Assembly: GCF_003334385.1 (NCBI RefSeq)
Contig: NZ_QOWN01000051.1
DNA from: Escherichia coli
GTDB lineage: Bacteria > Pseudomonadota > Gammaproteobacteria > Enterobacterales > Enterobacteriaceae
DNA: 32,463 nt
Strand: one strand, 5' to 3'
How positions within the stretch are numbered: position 1 is the stretch's first letter; the number at the start of each line of letters is the position of its first letter. The notes beneath the pieces are model-generated. The model saw only the letters and a program-made list of their open reading frames with translations, did no database searches and was not told where the DNA came from. The position numbers and the translations under genes are program-made. Below, piece after piece: positions 12,724-23,750 of this stretch.

Positions 12724-14394
12724 TTGCAATTTGACTACATCATTATTGGTGCCGGCTCAGCCGGCAACGTTCTCGCTACCCGTCTGACTGAAGATCCGAA
12801 TACCTCCGTGCTGCTGCTTGAAGCGGGCGGCCCGGACTATCGCTTTGACTTCCGCACCCAGATGCCCGCTGCCCTGGCATTCCCGCTACAGGGTAAACGC
12901 TACAACTGGGCCTATGAAACGGAACCTGAACCGTTTATGAATAACCGCCGCATGGAGTGCGGACGCGGTAAAGGTCTGGGTGGATCGTCGCTGATCAACG
13001 GCATGTGCTACATCCGTGGCAATGCGCTGGATCTCGATAACTGGGCGCAAGAACCCGGTCTGGAGAACTGGAGCTACCTCGACTGCCTGCCCTACTACCG
13101 CAAGGCCGAGACTCGCGATATGGGTGAAAACGACTATCACGGCGGTGATGGCCCGGTGAGCGTCACTACCTCCAAACCCGGCGTCAATCCGCTGTTTGAA
13201 GCGATGATTGAAGCGGGCGTGCAGGCGGGCTACCCGCGCACGGACGATCTCAACGGTTATCAGCAGGAAGGTTTTGGTCCGATGGATCGCACCGTCACGC
13301 CGCAGGGCCGTCGCGCCAGCACCGCGCGTGGCTATCTCGATCAGGCCAAATCGCGTCCTAACCTGACCATTCGTACTCACGCTATGACCGATCACATCAT
13401 TTTTGACGGCAAACGCGCGGTGGGCGTCGAATGGCTGGAAGGCGACAGCACCATCCCAACCCGCGCAACGGCCAACAAAGAAGTGCTGTTATGTGCAGGC
13501 GCGATTGCCTCACCGCAGATCCTGCAACGCTCCGGCGTCGGCAACGCTGAACTGCTGGCGGAGTTTGATATTCCGCTGGTGCATGAATTACCCGGCGTCG
13601 GCGAAAATCTTCAGGATCATCTGGAGATGTATCTGCAATATGAGTGCAAAGAACCGGTTTCCCTCTACCCTGCCCTGCAGTGGTGGAACCAGCCGAAAAT
13701 CGGTGCGGAGTGGCTGTTTGGCGGCACTGGCGTTGGTGCCAGCAACCACTTTGAAGCAGGTGGATTTATTCGCAGCCGTGAGGAATTTGCGTGGCCGAAT
13801 ATTCAGTACCATTTCCTGCCAGTAGCGATTAACTATAACGGCTCGAATGCAGTGAAAGAGCACGGTTTCCAGTGCCACGTCGGCTCAATGCGCTCGCCAA
13901 GCCGTGGGCATGTGCGGATTAAATCCCGCGACCCGCACCAGCATCCGGCGATTCTGTTTAACTACATGTCGCACGAGCAGGACTGGCAGGAGTTCCGCGA
14001 CGCAATTCGCATCACCCGCGAGATCATGCATCAACCCGCGCTGGATCAGTATCGTGGCCGCGAAATCAGCCCCGGTGTCGAATGCCAGACGGATGAACAG
14101 CTCGATGAGTTCGTGCGTAACCACGCCGAAACCGCCTTCCATCCGTGCGGTACCTGCAAAATGGGTTACGACGAGATGTCCGTGGTTGACGGCGAAGGCC
14201 GCGTACACGGGTTAGAAGGCCTGCGTGTGGTGGATGCGTCGATTATGCCGCAGATTATCACCGGGAATTTGAACACCACGACAATTATGATTGGCGAGAA
14301 AATAGCGGATATGATTCGTGGACAGGAAGCGCTGCCGAGGAGCACGGCGGGATATTTTGTGGCAAATGGGATGCCGGTGAGAGCGAAAAAATGA
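12724..14394 (+). CDS. betA: Choline dehydrogenase, GMC oxidoreductase (556 aa), probable TTG start
   Basis: N-terminal FAD-binding motif [15 protein letters not shown]. The sequence I recall for BetA begins MQFDY, which corresponds to a TTG at 12724 sitting 7 nt after an AGGAGG; the track ATG at 12679 would overlap the betB 3' end. Confidence 0.9.
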
Positions 14395-14430
14395 GTCGTG
14401 ATGTGAACTAACGCAGGAACCGATCAGATT

Positions 14431-14489
14431 GAGAGTTACCGTTCCAGAGAGGGGGACCGAATCCTTATATAAACACTGAGGTAACTCTC
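14431..14489 (+). terminator. Long stem-loop (10-bp perfect arms GAGAGTTACC/GGTAACTCTC, 39-nt interior) 37 nt after the betA stop; possible terminator or structured 3' element
   Basis: Directly visible inverted repeat; the next 30 nt include GCGGGCTTTTTGC. Confidence 0.35.
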
Positions 14490-14606
14490 ATGCTTCATAT
14501 CCAGTATTCATGATGCGGGCTTTTTGCTGATATTTAACCCGAACATTCCTGATACAGACTATTAATACAACCTTATCTGCGACAGATTTTATTCTCTGGA
14601 TATATT

Positions 14607-15275
14607 ATGCGTGAACAAATCAAACAGGATATCGATCTGATTGAGATTTTATTTTATCTGAAGAAAAAGATTCGTGTTATCCTTTTTATTATGGCTATAT
14701 GTATGGCTATGGTGCTGTTGTTTCTGTATATCAATAAAGACAATATAAAAGTGATTTACAGCCTAAAAATAAACCAGACAACGCCAGGTATACTTGTTAG
14801 CTGTGATAGCAATAATAATTTTGCCTGTCAGACTACAATGACTGAAGATGTTATTCAGCGAATTACTACATTTTTTCACACCAGCCCAGATGTCAAGAAC
14901 AGAGAAATAAGGCTGGAATGGTCAGGAGATAAGAGAGCTTTACCAACTGCTGAAGAGGAAATATCTCGCGTGCAGGCCTCTATTATCAAATGGTATGCGT
15001 CAGAATATCATAATGGCAGGCAAGTTCTCGATGAGATACAAACGCCTTCAGCAATTAACAGTGAGCTTTATACAAAAATGATATACCTGACCAGGAACTG
15101 GTCATTGTATCCGAACGGTGATGGCTGTGTAACTATAAGCTCACCAGAAATAAAAAATAAATACCCTGCTGCCATTTGCCTGGCTCTGGGATTTTTTCTA
15201 AGCATTGTAATTTCTGTAATGTTTTGCCTTGTCAAAAAAATGGTAGATGAATACCAACAAAACTCTGGGCAGTAA
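14607..15275 (+). CDS. ykgH: Bitopic inner-membrane protein (222 aa), function unknown
   Basis: Hydrophobic segments near both N-terminus (VILFIMAICMAMVLLFLYI) and C-terminus (AAICLALGFFLSIVISVMFCLV) flanking a hydrophilic domain of about 140 aa; markedly AT-rich coding sequence. Confidence 0.8.
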   Translation: MREQIKQDIDLIEILFYLKKKIRVILFIMAICMAMVLLFLYINKDNIKVIYSLKINQTTPGILVSCDSNNNFACQTTMTEDVIQRITTFFHTSPDVKNREIRLEWSGDKRALPTAEEEISRVQASIIKWYASEYHNGRQVLDEIQTPSAINSELYTKMIYLTRNWSLYPNGDGCVTISSPEIKNKYPAAICLALGFFLSIVISVMFCLVKKMVDEYQQNSGQ

Positions 15276-15517
15276 TAAACAACATTCTGATAGAGAGTGC
15301 CTGTATAAAGCTGAAGTGACAATGACCGGGAAGGGAACCCGTTTTCAGGAATGGATGCCTGTCTTTTTCACTGTAAATATCCTGGCATTGGTAATACCAG
15401 GATATTTACAGAAGAGCAGCATAACCATGACGGAACGGGGTTAAGTCAGGTTGTCCTAAACGCTATTTTCAACCTCGTATGCCTTCTTCAGGTTTATGTC
15501 CAGACTTCATATCTCTC

Positions 15518-16213
15518 TCAACAATCCTCAATAATCAGATACACCGCTTTCACCGGGCCATGAACTCCGACGACTTTGATAAGCTCAATATCCGCCGTTG
15601 AACTGGGGCCGCTAATGATGTTAATGCAGGAAGGCATTCGTTCACCGGCCTGCGCTTTCTGATGCAATTTTTCTGCGAGTTGCGCTACACGCGGCAGGAT
15701 AGTGCTTTTACGCAGGATAAAAAGAGAATATTCCGGGAGCAGGCTCAATGAACGCCCGCGCTCGGCGGCGGAAAAAAGAACCACACCTCCCGATTCGGTT
15801 AAACCATATTCAGCATACACAACACCCACTTTAGCCTGCTCTGCCTGCGAGATATTCTCGGCACCTTTCGCCGGATCCCAAACAACGGCATTGCATTCCT
15901 GCTGCAAACGTTCGCTAATCCCCAATTCCTCCAGCCTCGTGTCACCGCTAATCACGACCGACTGATCTCCCAGCTCTTTACACAGACGTATTGCAGCTTC
16001 TGCCGCCTTCGCCTCGCTGGTCAGCTCACAGCGCGTCAACATAACATCGCTGGCAAACTGAATAAACGCGTCACAGCGCTGCTGTTGGTTAAGTTGGGTA
16101 AGCCGCTCGTTAGCATAGTTGTTAAGCGGCGCATCTTCTGCTTGCGGTTCAAGTCGCAGCGGGCGACCCAGTGCCTGAGCAACGTTATTCAAAAATTCGC
16201 CTCGATTATCCAT
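15518..16213 (-). CDS. ykgG: LutC-like subunit of a LutABC-type three-gene oxidase system (231 aa)
   Basis: Start chosen at MDNRGEFLNNVAQALGRPL (231 aa), which overlaps the ykgF stop by 8 nt; the track ORF extends 51 codons further upstream into ykgF. Confidence 0.85.
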   Translation of the reverse strand: MDNRGEFLNNVAQALGRPLRLEPQAEDAPLNNYANERLTQLNQQQRCDAFIQFASDVMLTRCELTSEAKAAEAAIRLCKELGDQSVVISGDTRLEELGISERLQQECNAVVWDPAKGAENISQAEQAKVGVVYAEYGLTESGGVVLFSAAERGRSLSLLPEYSLFILRKSTILPRVAQLAEKLHQKAQAGERMPSCINIISGPSSTADIELIKVVGVHGPVKAVYLIIEDC

Positions 16214-17633
16214 TCTTTTTCTCCTGCGCCTGATGTTTCTTAAACCAACTACGGAAACTCTCTCCGTCAGCTTCAGGAAGATCGCGTGCTTCCATCCAGT
16301 CGCTAATCGCGCCAAATTTGAGTGGTGTTTTGCCGCCATTGATAAACCAGCTTGCCGCATGAGCACCGGCCATCATCCCGACTTTCCACAATCCTGGATG
16401 ACTATTGGCATAAGCGAACATTTTTATCGCCCGTTGCTCTGCTTTTGCGGTGATCCCTTTTTCAGCCATCACCCGACGATGACGCAAAATCAGTTTTGAC
16501 AGCGGAATACGCACCGGACACACGTTGTCACAAGCTGTGCATAAAGAGCAGGCGTAGGGTAAATCTTTAAAATCTTTATAGCCGCCAAGTAGCGGAGAAA
16601 TCACCGCACCAATTGGCCCTGGATAAATAGAGCCATATCCATGACCGCCAATATGGCGATATGCCGGACAAGTATTCATACAAGCCCCGCAGCGAATACA
16701 GCGCAGCACATCCCGAAATTCAGAGGCCAGCACCTCAGAACGCCCGTTATCGACAATAACCAGATGAAACTCTTCAGGACCATCAACGTGCCCAGCTTCG
16801 CGCGGTCCTGTCAGCCAGGTGTTGTATCCCGTCAAACGTGCACCAACGGCACTGCGCGCCAGCATGGTGATCAATACATCTACCTCGGCAAACGTGGGGG
16901 CAATACGCTCCATTCCCATCACTGCAATATGCGTTTTAGGCAGCGTGGTACACATTCGCGCATTACCTTCATTGGTCACCAGGCATACCGAACCGGTCTC
17001 TGCCACCGCGAAATTACAGCCGGTAATACCTATTTCAGCACTGAGGAAATCTTCGCGGATTTTTTGCCGGATGAATAAGGTCATCGCTTCAGGCGTTTCC
17101 GGCCCCTCATAGCCCAGACGTTCGTGTAGCACTCGACGGATCTGATGGCGATCTTTATGAATTGCCGGGACCACAACATGAGATGGCGGATCTTGATCCA
17201 GCTGGAGAATATATTCACCCAGATCGGTTTCAATCACCTGAATGCCAGCATCCTGCAACACATGATTGACACCAATCTCTTCGGTCACCATCGATTTAGA
17301 TTTCACCACCTTCCGGGCATTTTTGCGTTGGGCAACCTGTAAAATGTAGCGGGTAGCGTCTTCTTTGGTTCTTGCAAAATAGACGTGACCGCCGTTTTGC
17401 GTCACTTTTTCTGAGAGCTGGTACAGATAAGCGTCGAGATTACTCAGAACATGATCACGTATCTGGGCGGCCCGATCGCGCCACTCCTCCCAGTGCCCCA
17501 ATTCATCGACCATTTTTTGCCGATTTGCCCCAATACGCTGCTGCGCGTTTGCCACCGCTTTGCGCATGATCGGATCTTCAATTTGCTGACGGATGCGTGT
17601 CTTAAAATCTGTATTACTGGTTTTGATCGACAT
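16206..17633 (-). CDS. ykgF: LutB-like iron-sulfur protein with two 4Fe-4S ferredoxin-type cysteine clusters (475 aa)
   Basis: CxxCxxCxxxCP motifs visible (CIRCGACMNTCPAY and CSLCTACDNVCPV). Confidence 0.9.
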   Translation of the reverse strand: MSIKTSNTDFKTRIRQQIEDPIMRKAVANAQQRIGANRQKMVDELGHWEEWRDRAAQIRDHVLSNLDAYLYQLSEKVTQNGGHVYFARTKEDATRYILQVAQRKNARKVVKSKSMVTEEIGVNHVLQDAGIQVIETDLGEYILQLDQDPPSHVVVPAIHKDRHQIRRVLHERLGYEGPETPEAMTLFIRQKIREDFLSAEIGITGCNFAVAETGSVCLVTNEGNARMCTTLPKTHIAVMGMERIAPTFAEVDVLITMLARSAVGARLTGYNTWLTGPREAGHVDGPEEFHLVIVDNGRSEVLASEFRDVLRCIRCGACMNTCPAYRHIGGHGYGSIYPGPIGAVISPLLGGYKDFKDLPYACSLCTACDNVCPVRIPLSKLILRHRRVMAEKGITAKAEQRAIKMFAYANSHPGLWKVGMMAGAHAASWFINGGKTPLKFGAISDWMEARDLPEADGESFRSWFKKHQAQEKKNG

Positions 17634-22245: not shown

Positions 22246-22403
22246 TAATCCGAACACTGTCTGTTGTTCACTTTTTCAGGCGTCAGGCCCCCTTTCTGAT
22301 GATGAAGCCTGACGCCATATTACCGGAGATATGACAGAGTGAAGATCAATATCACTCCCTGTTAAAAGGTTTTTGTCGTCTTAGGTAAAATACATGATTA
22401 ATA

Positions 22404-22571
22404 TCAATCATGTATTTTTACAGCAAGACAACCACGAACAAATTCAGGATTAAAATGTTTTACCGACTCCCCAACATAACCCAAATCAAGCGAACTAATT
22501 TGTGCCATTTCTTTATCTGTCAGTGAGAAATCGATTTTTGATGGGCATCTGCAATACTCTGAAGCAGACTA
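22404..22571 (-). pseudogene. C-terminal remnant of an aldo-keto-reductase-like gene (ykgQ-like pseudogene)
   Basis: Hand translation of the minus strand gives ...KIDFSLTDKEMAQISSLDLGYVGESVKHFNPEFVRGCLAVKIHD*, resembling AKR C-termini; an in-frame stop sits immediately upstream and another frame carries a further fragment (...VCFVVPENREV...), so the gene is disrupted. Confidence 0.4.
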
Positions 22572-23714: not shown

Positions 23715-23750
23715 CCTTGCCTGATACTATTTAATCAGTATCAGGCAAGG
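23715..23750. terminator. Perfect 14-bp inverted repeat (CCTTGCCTGATACT / AGTATCAGGCAAGG, 8-nt loop) between convergent ykgA and eaeH
   Basis: Directly visible; no strong T-tract on either side, so terminator function is an inference. Confidence 0.45.

What the first reader, a model, noticed from the sequence alone, without database searches (positions are those of the whole stretch)
14395..15517. AT-rich ykgH islet between the bet and ykgEFG operons, preceded by an unusually long stem-loop
ykgH has strikingly low GC compared with the flanking bet and ykg genes and encodes a protein with one TM helix at each end around a hydrophilic, presumably periplasmic, domain of about 140 aa with paired cysteines. 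That topology resembles polysaccharide co-polymerase and other periplasmic scaffold proteins. The composition suggests horizontal acquisition and probable H-NS silencing. The 10-bp-stem hairpin with 39-nt interior at 14431-14489 between betA and ykgH may be a structured RNA element rather than a simple terminator. The ~240-bp ykgH-ykgG convergent gap (15276-15517) holds no convincing gene.
Basis: partly seen in the sequence, partly recalled or inferred. Interest (0 to 1): 0.35.

Follow-up and report, generated by a model that had tools for sequence, protein, structure and literature searches.

The report
ykgH: short OpvB-type O-antigen length regulator
The AT-rich ykgH islet is what a 6-kb deletion left of a known E. 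coli pathogenicity island: its 'unusual hairpin' is the dead left end of an insertion sequence, and ykgH encodes a previously unrecognised relative of Salmonella OpvB, a protein that shortens the O-antigen.

Summary
The sequence observations hold. ykgH (14607-15275) has the lowest GC (0.37) of 22 ORFs in the window, two TM helices, a ~140-aa periplasmic domain and an invariant Cys pair. The 11-bp-stem hairpin at 14430-14490 is real.

The interpretation needs revision in three places.

1. YkgH is a miniature polysaccharide co-polymerase. It is an end-to-end homologue of Salmonella OpvB (hhalign 99.5%, E 5e-23). OpvB imposes short O-antigen chains and confers phage resistance. Most relatives carry an OpvA-like peptide gene directly upstream; E. 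coli ykgH does not.

2. The hairpin is not an RNA element. It is the relic of the left end of an IS481-family insertion sequence (terminal repeat, leader stem, SD, ATG-CTT-CAT). In other E. coli the same IS pseudogene continues into the 6-kb PAI-X island (ipbA/fimX-hyxRAB). The window is therefore a deletion derivative, with the junction at 14497/14498.

3. The ykgH-ykgG gap holds no protein gene. It does hold a very strong 19-bp hairpin (15371-15411) and a published candidate Hfq-bound 3'UTR RNA.

Published hyxA/hyxR mutants make more short O-antigen, which gives a testable link to ykgH. That function is inferred, not shown.

The parts
14392..14499 (+). Relic of the left end of an IS481-family insertion sequence. 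It comprises a degraded terminal inverted repeat that overlaps the betA stop codon (about 14392-14420), the leader stem-loop, an SD at GAGG 14476-14479, and the first three transposase codons, ATG CTT CAT, at 14490-14498.
   Evidence: Window 14426-14499 matches about 250 plasmids at 77-83% identity. In L032 the match is the 5' end of an annotated IS481-family transposase gene. A global alignment places window 14392-14499 on IS nt 3-113.
14430..14490 (+). The hairpin of the finding: 11-nt arms TGAGAGTTACC / GGTAACTCTCA with 39 nt between them. The right arm lies between the SD and the transposase ATG.
   Evidence: dG -20.4 kcal/mol, z -2.4. The arms are invariant in 9 E. coli haplotypes and identical in the plasmid IS copies, while the loop varies.
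14497..14498 (.). Deletion junction. In PAI-X-positive E. coli about 5,989 bp lie between these two bases: the rest of the IS481 pseudogene, ipbA/fimX, hyxR, hyxA and hyxB/upaB.
   Evidence: The BLAST break-points are window 14300-14498 = L004:813-1011 and window 14497-14698 = L004:7001-7202. IS homology continues to L004:1065.
14579..14606 (+). Sigma-70 promoter-like site GCGACA-16-TATATT, in a spacer that binds RNAP and H-NS in vitro. The hexamer assignment is doubtful because the -10 ends 1 nt before the ATG.
   Evidence: Consensus scan. The same hexamers and an H-NS mark are listed for the betA-ykgH spacer in PMC3946193.
14607..15275 (+). ykgH: a 222-aa inner-membrane protein and short OpvB-type polysaccharide co-polymerase. 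It has a Wzz-like N-terminal motif at residues 8-44, TM1, an alpha/beta base domain with the C66/C74 pair, a short helical hairpin at 109-167, and TM2.
   Evidence: dN/dS is 0.13.
15276..15357 (+). ykgH 3'UTR, the region of the published RIL-seq candidate sRNA. The Northern probes map to 15319-15348 and 15334-15357. It contains a weak stem, 15327-15330 with 15338-15341, followed by UUUU.
   Evidence: PMC5145812 and PMC8175672. The fold is not exceptional (z +0.17). The U-run is lost in the B2 allele.
15371..15411 (.). Strong hairpin between the convergent genes ykgH and ykgG: 19-nt arms with a 3-nt loop, and no U-tract on either strand.
   Evidence: z -6.9 on +, -9.9 on -. The stems are conserved and the loop is variable in 5 strains, and two strains have a perfect stem.
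15518..16213 (-). ykgG (LutC family), the core-genome right boundary of the low-GC tract.
   Evidence: Annotation of the identical region in L001 and K-12. GC is 0.516.

Best explanation
The segment 14392-15517 is the remnant of a horizontally acquired, low-GC island. In many E. coli that island reads betA | IS481-family element - ipbA/fimX - hyxR - hyxA - hyxB/upaB - ykgH | ykgG.

In the lineage of this window, a single ~6.0-kb deletion with 2-nt microhomology removed everything from codon 4 of the already decaying IS transposase gene to 109 nt upstream of ykgH. What remains is three things:

(a) The IS left end. Its leader stem-loop is the 'unusual hairpin'. In active copies this stem would pair the region between the SD and the transposase ATG. 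That role is inferred, by analogy with other IS elements.

(b) ykgH.

(c) The ykgH 3' region, with a strong hairpin facing ykgG.

ykgH encodes a miniature polysaccharide co-polymerase of the OpvB type. It has two TM helices, a Wzz-type juxtamembrane motif, the PCP alpha/beta base domain carrying a probable periplasmic disulfide (C66-C74), and only a short helical hairpin.

By homology with Salmonella OpvB, the most likely function is to engage the Wzy-dependent polymerisation machinery and bias O-antigen (possibly ECA) towards short chains when the gene is expressed. In this strain it lacks the OpvA-like partner peptide and the island's regulators, and it is probably largely silenced by H-NS.

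Shown here: composition, homology, fold, IS relic, junction, purifying selection. Inferred: chain-length activity, disulfide, silencing in vivo, role of the IS stem.
For: Island and junction:
- PAI-X genes lie between betA and ykgH in other strains, with break-points at 14497/14498. PMC4844996 and PMC3789825 describe the island between betA and ykgH.

IS relic and direction of the event:
- Window 14426-14499 matches about 250 plasmids. In L032 this is the 5' end of an IS481 transposase gene.
- IS nt 4-165 align to L004:904-1065, across the junction, at 76% identity with E 3e-27. tblastn finds transposase residues 1-21 and 44-97 inside the island's left end.

PCP and OpvB relationship:
- Pfam Wzz hits residues 8-44 (E 0.0025) and 6 of 9 family members at E <= 0.1. 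GNVR hits 4 of 9 members, best 8e-8.
- NCBIfam WzzB/FepE N-terminal models hit 7 of 8 members.
- The family profile against the PDB has WzzB 6rbg (E 0.0028) and FepE as top hits, with colinear N- and C-terminal matches.
- OpvB against the family profile gives probability 99.5%, E 5e-23, over 205 columns. OpvB-YkgH BLASTP gives E 6e-9 over 216 aa. OpvB-P0077 is 32% identical, E 2e-25.
- D10, P60, C66, C74, W129 and Y186 are invariant, OpvB included.

OpvB function:
- Published: short 3-8 repeat-unit modal length and phage resistance (PMC3350482, PMC4652898).

Selection:
- dN/dS is 0.13, with dS similar to the flanking genes. ykgH is found in 5221 of 5426 complete E. coli genomes.

H-NS:
-. The Tn5 insertion index in EC958 is low, 0.04 against 0.11-0.20 for the neighbours.
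Against: - No experiment links YkgH to any polysaccharide.
- YkgH and OpvB are only 19% identical.
- No OpvA-like gene or detectable relic lies upstream of ykgH. In Salmonella, OpvB alone competes poorly with WzzB.
- ykgH insertions had no serum phenotype in EC958 TraDIS (logFC -0.18, not significant).
- ykgH is a pseudogene in O157 and several other strains.
- The Pfam and NCBIfam matches are all below the curated thresholds.
- The invariance of the hairpin arms within E. coli (0 of 22 columns variable, against 23 of 84 in the adjoining columns) is not explained by a dead relic. It could mean the stem has been co-opted, for example as a betA 3'-end structure.
Confidence: 0.6

Rival explanations
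1. ykgH is an evolutionary leftover with no present function in E. coli. On this view it is an orphaned OpvB-like gene that lost its partner peptide and regulators and is drifting towards loss.
For: - Premature stops or frameshifts occur in O157 and in strains elppa4 and UTAK-2.
- Sizeable clusters of truncated products exist.
- No OpvA-like gene is present.
- There is no TraDIS phenotype.
- H-NS binds the spacer.
Against: - dN/dS is 0.13 across phylogroups, with dS comparable to the core neighbours.
- The intact 222-aa form dominates: the two full-length clusters hold 2167 and 5195 member sequences.
- The gene is present in 96% of complete genomes.
- The absence of a loss-of-function phenotype is also true of opvAB.
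Confidence: 0.15
2. YkgH works with adjacent surface adhesins rather than as a general chain-length determinant. For example, it could locally shorten or re-organise O-antigen or another polymer so that the short autotransporter UpaB/HyxB or fimbriae are exposed. Alternatively it acts on ECA, colanic acid or curli-associated matrix.
For: Family members recur next to adhesin genes:
- Downstream of hyxB/upaB in E. coli.
- Downstream of a 97%-identical hyxB and upstream of a second autotransporter in L008.
- After a 1608-aa autotransporter in L009.
- After a fimbrial operon plus a WaaL/PglL-like gene and a DsbA-like gene in L012.
- Between PapB-type regulators in Citrobacter.

In addition, ykgH appears in a Keio Congo-red/curli hit list (PMC5745457).
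Against: - The association rests on a handful of contigs.
- Plasmid-borne members have no adhesin neighbour.
- The one experimentally studied member, OpvB, acts on O-antigen length globally.
Confidence: 0.2
3. The 14430-14490 stem-loop is a functional RNA or DNA element of the host, such as a betIBA 3'-end stabiliser, a terminator, or a protein-binding site. On this view it is not merely an IS relic.
For: - The arms are invariant in 9 haplotypes while flanks and loop vary by 20-36%.
- The element sits 36 nt after the betA stop.
- It folds equally well on both strands.
Against: - No U-tract follows the stem and no Rfam family matches.
- The z-score is only -0.75 in context.
- No compensatory changes are seen.
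- The same arms, SD and ATG-CTT-CAT are conserved in active plasmid IS copies, which explains their origin.
- IS1 insertions in the loop are tolerated.
Confidence: 0.15
4. PAI-X inserted into a K-12-like empty site. On this view the window shows the ancestral state rather than a deletion.
For: - The island carries a tyrosine recombinase gene and has a lower GC than the core genome.
- The junction is identical in several flank haplotypes.
Against: - The IS481-like sequence is split by the junction. Its first 103 nt are in the window, and its continuation (IS nt up to 165, transposase residues up to about 97) is inside the island. An insertion would have to land by chance exactly inside codon 3-4 of a pre-existing IS fragment and bring the matching remainder with it.
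- There is no target duplication, only 2-nt microhomology.
Confidence: 0.05

Closest known systems
Salmonella enterica OpvB (STM2208) of the opvAB operon
   Same: - Similar size: 221 aa against 222 aa.
- Two TM helices and a Wzz-like N-terminal motif, with no long coiled coil.
- Low GC (38% against 37%) in a core-genome context.
- End-to-end homology, including the invariant D, P, C...C, W and Y residues.
   Different: - Only 19% identity.
- E. coli ykgH has no OpvA-like peptide gene upstream.
- There is no cluster of GATC sites like the four in the opvAB control region. The 212-nt spacer has a single GATC, at 14421.
- The genomic location differs (setB region against bet/ykg).
- The function of YkgH is untested.
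Class 1 polysaccharide co-polymerases WzzB, FepE and WzzE
   Same: - The same membrane topology.
- The same N-terminal juxtamembrane motif and TM2 region at profile level.
   Different: - About 100-150 residues shorter.
- The long periplasmic helical hairpin that forms the bell of Wzz oligomers is reduced to helices 109-143 and 153-167.
- All family-model scores are far below the curated cut-offs.
Gram-positive PCP-2b adaptors (CpsC/CapA, TIGR01006)
   Same: - Similar length (profile of 226 positions).
- Two TM helices and a small extracytoplasmic domain.
- A weak N-terminal match (E 0.013).
   Different: - Those proteins activate a separate cytoplasmic BY-kinase through a C-terminal tail. YkgH has only about 14 cytoplasmic C-terminal residues and no adjacent kinase gene.
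PAI-X / UpaB cluster (fimX/ipbA-hyxR-hyxA-hyxB) of ExPEC
   Same: - The same chromosomal slot between betA and ykgH.
- The window keeps both flanks of that island.
   Different: - The window lacks all four island genes.
- The literature treats ykgH as a core flank. Here it appears to belong to the same low-GC tract.
IS481-family insertion sequences (plasmid copy in K. pneumoniae pRGT40-1-181k, L032:2463-3671)
   Same: - Homologous terminal repeat, leader hairpin, SD and first three codons.
   Different: - Only the first ~108 nt survive in the window.
- No transposase gene and no right end are present.
Leader fold-back structures of IS elements such as IS10 (from general knowledge of IS regulation; not tested here)
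   Same: - A stem that pairs the translation-initiation region of the transposase in transcripts entering from outside the element.
   Different: - This mechanism has not been demonstrated for this IS481-family element.
- In the window the stem no longer precedes a gene.

Membership tests
OpvB-like short PCP family | Full-length sequence homology to OpvB | tested here: met
   hhalign gives 99.5% probability, E 5e-23, over 205 columns. BLASTP gives E 6e-9. P0077 bridges the two at 32% identity, E 2e-25.
OpvB-like short PCP family | About 220 aa, two TM helices, a conserved Cys pair and a WY motif in the periplasmic domain | tested here: met
OpvB-like short PCP family | OpvA-like small TM peptide gene immediately upstream | tested here: not met
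   Present in 6 of 8 non-E. coli members and in Salmonella. Absent upstream of ykgH. An HMM relic search scored 0.8 bits, against 2.1 bits for the 95th percentile of shuffled sequence.
OpvB-like short PCP family | Dam/OxyR phase-variable control region with clustered GATC sites | tested here: not met
   By reading, the 212-nt spacer has one GATC, at 14421-14424. opvAB has four.
OpvB-like short PCP family | Imposes short O-antigen modal length; confers phage resistance | not testable with these tools
   Needs LPS gels and phage assays.
Polysaccharide co-polymerase (Wzz/PCP) superfamily | N-terminal Wzz domain (PF02706) | tested here: inconclusive
   E 0.0025 for residues 8-44, and 6 of 9 members at E <= 0.1, all below threshold. 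WzzB/FepE NCBIfam models hit 7 of 8 members at E 1e-5 to 0.1.
Polysaccharide co-polymerase (Wzz/PCP) superfamily | C-terminal GNVR / TM2 region | tested here: inconclusive
   YkgH scores E 0.56. One member (P0060) scores 8e-8, and 4 of 9 score <= 0.1.
Polysaccharide co-polymerase (Wzz/PCP) superfamily | PCP fold: TM1, alpha/beta base, helical hairpin, TM2 | tested here: met
Polysaccharide co-polymerase (Wzz/PCP) superfamily | Long periplasmic coiled-coil/helical extension | tested here: not met
   The longest helix is 109-143, which is 35 residues. OpvB likewise lacks the coiled coil.
Polysaccharide co-polymerase (Wzz/PCP) superfamily | Oligomeric ring; interaction with Wzy | not testable with these tools
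   No multimer prediction or interaction assay was available.
IS481-family insertion sequence (for the hairpin) | Homologous terminal inverted repeat and leader | tested here: met
IS481-family insertion sequence (for the hairpin) | Intact DDE transposase gene and right inverted repeat | tested here: not met
   Only 3 codons are left in the window, and no right-end match exists in 14300-16000 or in the whole window. It is a relic, not an element.
Intrinsic (Rho-independent) terminator | GC-rich stem followed by a U-tract | tested here: not met
   The scan finds none at either hairpin. The sequence after 14490 is TGCTTCATATCC. After 15411 there is no T-run on either strand.
Known structured RNA families (Rfam) | Covariance-model match | tested here: not met
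   Only sub-threshold miRNA-type hits, caused by the 15371-15411 hairpin.
Hfq-dependent 3'UTR-derived sRNA | Hfq-bound chimeras with targets; discrete transcript; terminator with U-tail | tested here: inconclusive
   RIL-seq chimeras and a target motif are reported, but Northern blots were negative. There is only a weak 4-bp stem plus UUUU at 15327-15345, and the U-run is lost in B2 strains.

The most novel reading that the evidence does not exclude
YkgH is the missing effector behind the published but unexplained finding that hyxA and hyxR mutants of ST131 make more short O-antigen.

In PAI-X-positive E. coli, the FimX/IpbA-invertible hyxR switch would then control an OpvB-type chain shortener. 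That would be an invertase-driven counterpart of Salmonella's Dam/OxyR opvAB switch, trading serum resistance against phage resistance or adhesin exposure.

More broadly, OpvA/OpvB-like two-gene modules, found here unannotated in Citrobacter, in Providencia and as the sole cargo of 3.5-6 kb mobilizable plasmids, would be a widespread and portable way of remodelling O-antigen length in Enterobacterales.
Probability: 0.25. Interest if true: 0.7.

Novelty: new member of a known kind. Interest (0 to 1): 0.45.

Why it matters
ykgH is a long-standing y-gene present in about 96% of E. coli genomes, with no assigned function. Placing it in the OpvB family gives a specific prediction that is cheap to test: short O-antigen or ECA chains on expression.

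The placement also joins three literatures that do not cite each other in the searched open-access papers:
- Salmonella opvAB phase variation and phage resistance.
- Wzz structural biology.

It contradicts the published statement that OpvB has no homologues outside Salmonella. It also reveals unannotated OpvA-like peptides and plasmid-borne OpvAB-like modules.

The IS481 relic fixes the direction of a common E. coli presence/absence polymorphism: K-12-type strains lost PAI-X. It also removes a false candidate for a structured RNA.

Tried and rejected
- Genome-contig scan with YkgH. It returned only two tiny E. coli contaminant contigs, in Nocardioides and Amycolatopsis assemblies. It says nothing about distribution in other Escherichia species.
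- k-mer-seeded homologue searches. They saw only close Escherichia relatives plus Citrobacter, and did not find OpvB. OpvB had to be fetched through a primer-derived DNA pattern.
- OpvA relic upstream of ykgH. By eye, a 34-codon frame with one stop overlaps the ATG. The HMM test is no better than shuffled sequence, so the idea was rejected.
- Right-end (IRR) relic of the IS in the ykgH-ykgG gap or elsewhere in the window: none found.
- A 93-aa minus-strand ORF crossing the PAI-X left junction (L004:949-1230). It is open in two haplotypes, but the start codon is missing in one and most differences are non-synonymous. It lies antisense to the IS pseudogene and was treated as spurious.
- Phage collection tblastn and PADLOC defence models: no hits.
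- Rfam: nothing meaningful.
- Covariation analysis of the 14430-14490 stem: impossible, because the arms are invariant. In one search I also mis-set some coordinates and cut off the left arm, so that result is not used.
- Transcriptome supplement of the AutA/AutR paper: no ykgH entry.
Full report
**What is there**

The window is the E. coli betTIBA - ykgH - ykgGFE region. Over the finding it is identical to many strains, including K-12 derivatives.

ykgH occupies 14607-15275 on the + strand. Its GC is 0.369 and its GC3 is 0.368, the lowest of the 22 ORFs of at least 150 aa in the window. betA is 0.565/0.643 and ykgG is 0.516/0.523. The compositional observation is therefore correct.

Hydropathy and an AlphaFold model (pLDDT 83.8) give TM helices at about 18-45 and 184-214, with a folded domain of about 140 residues between them. 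The hairpin exists as described: 11-nt perfect arms at 14430-14440 and 14480-14490, with 39 nt between them.

**The protein**

A word-seeded search of 5.8 billion proteins found only Escherichia sequences at 76% identity or more, plus one fragment at 54%.

An exhaustive phmmer search of 1.84 billion cluster representatives found a handful of full-length relatives at 21-29% identity. They come from three sources:
- Providencia rettgeri.
- Citrobacter freundii.
- A 1004-member cluster on 3.5-6 kb mobilizable plasmids of E. coli, Salmonella and Citrobacter, which NCBI names 'GNVR domain-containing protein'.

Several independent lines point to polysaccharide co-polymerases (PCPs):
- Sub-threshold but consistent Pfam Wzz hits at the N-terminus and GNVR hits at the C-terminus across members.
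- NCBIfam WzzB/FepE N-terminal hits in 7 of 8 members.
- WzzB (6rbg) and FepE as the top hits of the family profile against all PDB sequences, with colinear N- and C-terminal matches.
- Foldseek top hits that are almost exclusively Wzc, WzzB, KpsE and WzzE.

The model has the PCP alpha/beta base but only a short helical hairpin (helices 109-143 and 153-167), not the long one of Wzz.

This architecture recalled Salmonella OpvB: 221 aa, 38% GC, Wzz-like but without a coiled coil (PMC3350482). I recovered the OpvB sequence from a metagenome contig, using a pattern taken from that paper's primers. The comparisons were:
- OpvB against the YkgH family profile: probability 99.5%, E 5e-23, over 205 columns from end to end.
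- OpvB against YkgH directly: 19% identity over 216 residues, pairwise E 6e-9.
- OpvB against family member P0077: 32% identity, E 2e-25.

D10, P60, C66, C74, W129 and Y186 are invariant in all ten sequences. YkgH is therefore a distant but secure homologue of OpvB.

OpvB is shown experimentally to impose a 3-8 repeat-unit O-antigen modal length and thereby to confer resistance to O-antigen-dependent phages (PMC3350482, PMC4652898). Those papers state that OpvB has no homologues outside Salmonella. No paper in the searchable library mentions both ykgH and opvAB.

**The partner peptide**

Salmonella OpvA is a 34-aa TM peptide encoded 1 nt upstream of opvB. I found an unannotated ORF of the same kind in six of eight non-E. 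coli family loci. It has the motif M-K/R-Y-T-x-x-A-K-x-F followed by a TM segment, is 29-31 aa long, and ends 0-10 nt before the OpvB-like gene. The six loci include the small plasmids, Citrobacter and Providencia.

E. coli ykgH has none. An HMM built from the seven peptides finds no relic in its upstream region. YkgH is thus a 'solo' OpvB-like protein.

It is nonetheless under purifying selection. dN/dS is 0.13 between phylogroup alleles, with dS close to that of betA and ykgG. It is present in 5221 of 5426 complete genomes. It is broken in O157 and some other strains.

**The island and the hairpin**

In many E. coli, about 6.0 kb lies between window positions 14497 and 14498. It carries ipbA (fimX), hyxR, hyxA and hyxB (upaB). 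This is the known PAI-X / UpaB cluster, which the literature describes as inserted between betA and ykgH (PMC4844996, PMC3789825).

The hairpin lies on the betA side, 8 nt from the junction. A BLAST of the spacer against plasmids gave an unexpected result. Window 14426-14499 matches about 250 plasmids from Escherichia, Salmonella, Klebsiella, Serratia, Erwinia, Xenorhabdus and others, at 77-83% identity. In K. pneumoniae pRGT40-1-181k the match is the 5' end of an annotated IS481-family transposase gene.

Aligned globally, window 14392-14499 corresponds to IS nucleotides 3-113. In order, the homologous parts are:
- A degraded terminal inverted repeat that overlaps the betA stop codon.
- The two 11-nt arms, identical to those of the IS.
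- An SD (GAGG).
- ATG CTT CAT, the first three codons of the transposase (MLH...).

In PAI-X-positive strains the homology runs on across the junction. IS nt 4-165 align to L004:904-1065 at 76% identity (E 3e-27), and tblastn finds transposase residues 1-21 and 44-97. So the AT-rich 'intergenic' left end of PAI-X is a decayed IS481 transposase gene, and the window retains only its first ~108 nt.

This fixes the polarity of the event. The window's arrangement is a deletion derivative of a PAI-X-bearing ancestor, not an empty insertion site. The junction shows only 2-nt microhomology.

The hairpin is therefore a relic of the IS leader. In an active element its right arm lies between the SD and the ATG, so the stem would occlude translation initiation in read-through transcripts. 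That role is an inference from general IS biology and was not tested.

One fact is left unexplained. Within E. coli the arms are invariant in nine haplotypes, while 14 of 39 loop columns and 9 of 45 upstream columns vary. Co-option, for example as a betA 3'-end structure, cannot be excluded. However, there is no U-tract, no Rfam match, no covariation, and only a modest folding z-score.

**The gap**

No convincing protein gene lies in 15276-15517. The gap does contain the most stable local structure of the region, a hairpin at 15371-15411 with 19-nt arms (z -6.9 on + RNA, -9.9 on - RNA). Its stems are conserved and its loop varies among five strains. No U-tract follows it on either strand, so it is not a canonical intrinsic terminator. 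A barrier or 3'-end-stabilising role for the convergent ykgH and ykgEFG transcripts is plausible but untested.

The first ~80 nt after the ykgH stop codon are the published RIL-seq candidate 'ykgH 3'UTR' sRNA. It is Hfq-associated and a shared target motif was reported. Northern blots with probes that map to 15319-15357 were negative, although RNA-seq reads accumulate there (PMC5145812, PMC8175672). The only terminator-like feature is a 4-bp stem plus UUUU at 15327-15345, and the U-run is lost in B2 strains.

**Regulation**

Genomic SELEX data list an RNAP-holoenzyme site with the hexamers GCGACA-16-TATATT (window 14579-14606) and an H-NS site in the betA-ykgH spacer (PMC3946193). The hexamer assignment is doubtful, because the -10 ends 1 nt before the start codon.

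In EC958 TraDIS data, ykgH has a low insertion index (0.04, against 0.11-0.20 for its neighbours) and no serum phenotype. H-NS silencing is thus plausible, but it has not been shown in vivo here.

**A link worth testing**

Phan et al. reported that hyxA and hyxR mutants of ST131 EC958 make more O-antigen of 2-6 units and less very long chain, and are serum sensitive. [quoted passage not shown] The phenotype resembles opvAB-ON.

The OpvB homologue ykgH lies directly downstream of hyxRAB, on the same strand. HyxA/AutA activates upaB and HyxR/AutR represses it (PMC4844996). hyxR itself is controlled by a FimX-invertible promoter.

A model in which YkgH is the effector is attractive, but the simplest version does not fit. 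If ykgH were simply co-transcribed with upaB, the hyxA and hyxR mutants should have opposite effects on chain length. I give the effector model about 0.25.

**Context of relatives**

Family members recur beside adhesin loci:
- An autotransporter in E. coli, L008 and L009.
- A fimbrial operon plus a WaaL/PglL-like gene and a DsbA-like gene in L012.
- PapB-type regulators in Citrobacter.

This suggests an adhesin-unmasking role as an alternative.

**Verdict**

The finding's observations are sound and its PCP intuition was right. The hairpin interpretation is wrong, because the hairpin is an IS relic. The 'islet' is a deletion remnant of a known island, and the gap is not empty of features.

The new content is the assignment of ykgH to the OpvB family, the wider OpvA/OpvB-like module family, and the polarity of the PAI-X polymorphism. 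That makes it a new member of a known kind, of moderate interest.

Noticed in passing
window 14460 (loop of the hairpin); L005:5066-5122; hits H1, H25, H70: Several E. coli strains carry IS1 insertions in or next to the hairpin loop. In strain E41 the IS1 is followed by ykgR, so ykgH through the ykg/rcl genes are deleted. Strain MB50 has IS1B inside the 1123-nt region.
   Followed up: partly
L008:280-1098 (ENA metagenome contig): This is a ykgH allele only 50-58% identical to YkgH, frameshifted here but intact as P0088. It sits directly after a hyxB C-terminus that is 97% identical to E. coli, and it is followed by a second HyxB-like autotransporter gene. The arrangement is absent from all 5,426 complete E. 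coli genomes. It suggests cassette-like replacement at this slot.
   Followed up: partly
proteins P0007, P0008 (E. coli ykgH alleles), corresponding to window ~14804-14825: There is an in-frame length polymorphism of a Asp-Ser repeat between the two invariant cysteines: CDSNNNFAC in the window, against CDSDSDSDNNFAC and CDSDSDSDSDNNFAC in these alleles.
   Followed up: no
L010:1017-1112, L017:7905-8000, L013:~343-438, L009:~7364-7456, L014:243-335, L016:~386-475: Unannotated OpvA-like small TM peptide genes (motif MKYTxxAKxF) lie immediately upstream of OpvB/YkgH-like genes on small plasmids and in Citrobacter, Providencia and metagenome contigs.
   Followed up: yes
L022 (E. coli plasmid p3_MLi104-1, 3713 bp) and about 50 other plasmids of 3.5-6 kb: Small mobilizable plasmids carry an OpvA/OpvB-like pair as their only evident cargo. 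This is reminiscent of the Wzz gene on Shigella pHS-2, a comparison from memory that was not checked.
   Followed up: partly
window 14388-14394; L026 and L028 annotation: The betA stop codon lies inside the degraded IS terminal repeat. In some strains betA is annotated 17 nt longer. The IS insertion may therefore have reshaped the betA 3' end.
   Followed up: no
L012:2867-3886 and 5062-7866: In one metagenome contig a reverse-transcriptase (RVT_1) gene sits inside a fimbrial operon. A 605-aa WaaL/PglL-like (Wzy_C) gene and a ScsC/DsbA-like gene precede the YkgH-family gene, and an enterotoxin-A/pertussis-S1-like ADP-ribosyltransferase gene lies downstream.
   Followed up: no
L020, L021: Contigs of 256 and 272 bp in the Nocardioides malaquae Y6 and Amycolatopsis orientalis DSM 40040 assemblies encode pieces of E. 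coli YkgH at 100% identity. This is almost certainly E. coli contamination of those assemblies.
   Followed up: no
L001:7124-7819 (strain 63-2) vs window 15518-16366: ykgG is annotated as a pseudogene with an internal stop in a strain whose ykgH region is identical to the window. In the window the frame is open for 282 codons, reaching upstream of the annotated ykgG start and overlapping ykgF.
   Followed up: no
window 22387-22418, 23715-23750, 30116-30150, 5772-5819: The window holds other strong inverted repeats or palindromes outside the finding: a 16-nt perfect-adjacent palindrome and two 14-nt perfect stems with 7-8 nt loops.
   Followed up: no
hits H79-H85 (F' plasmids of K-12 strains, 214-242 kb): The whole bet-ykgH region is carried on laboratory F-prime plasmids. 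This explains some of the 'plasmid' matches to this chromosomal locus.
   Followed up: no
L004:6963-6995: In PAI-X strains a GC-rich 12-bp stem (CCTGCAGGCAGC...GCTGCCTGCAGG) follows the hyxB stop, just before the right deletion end-point. It bears on whether ykgH can be co-transcribed with hyxB.
   Followed up: no
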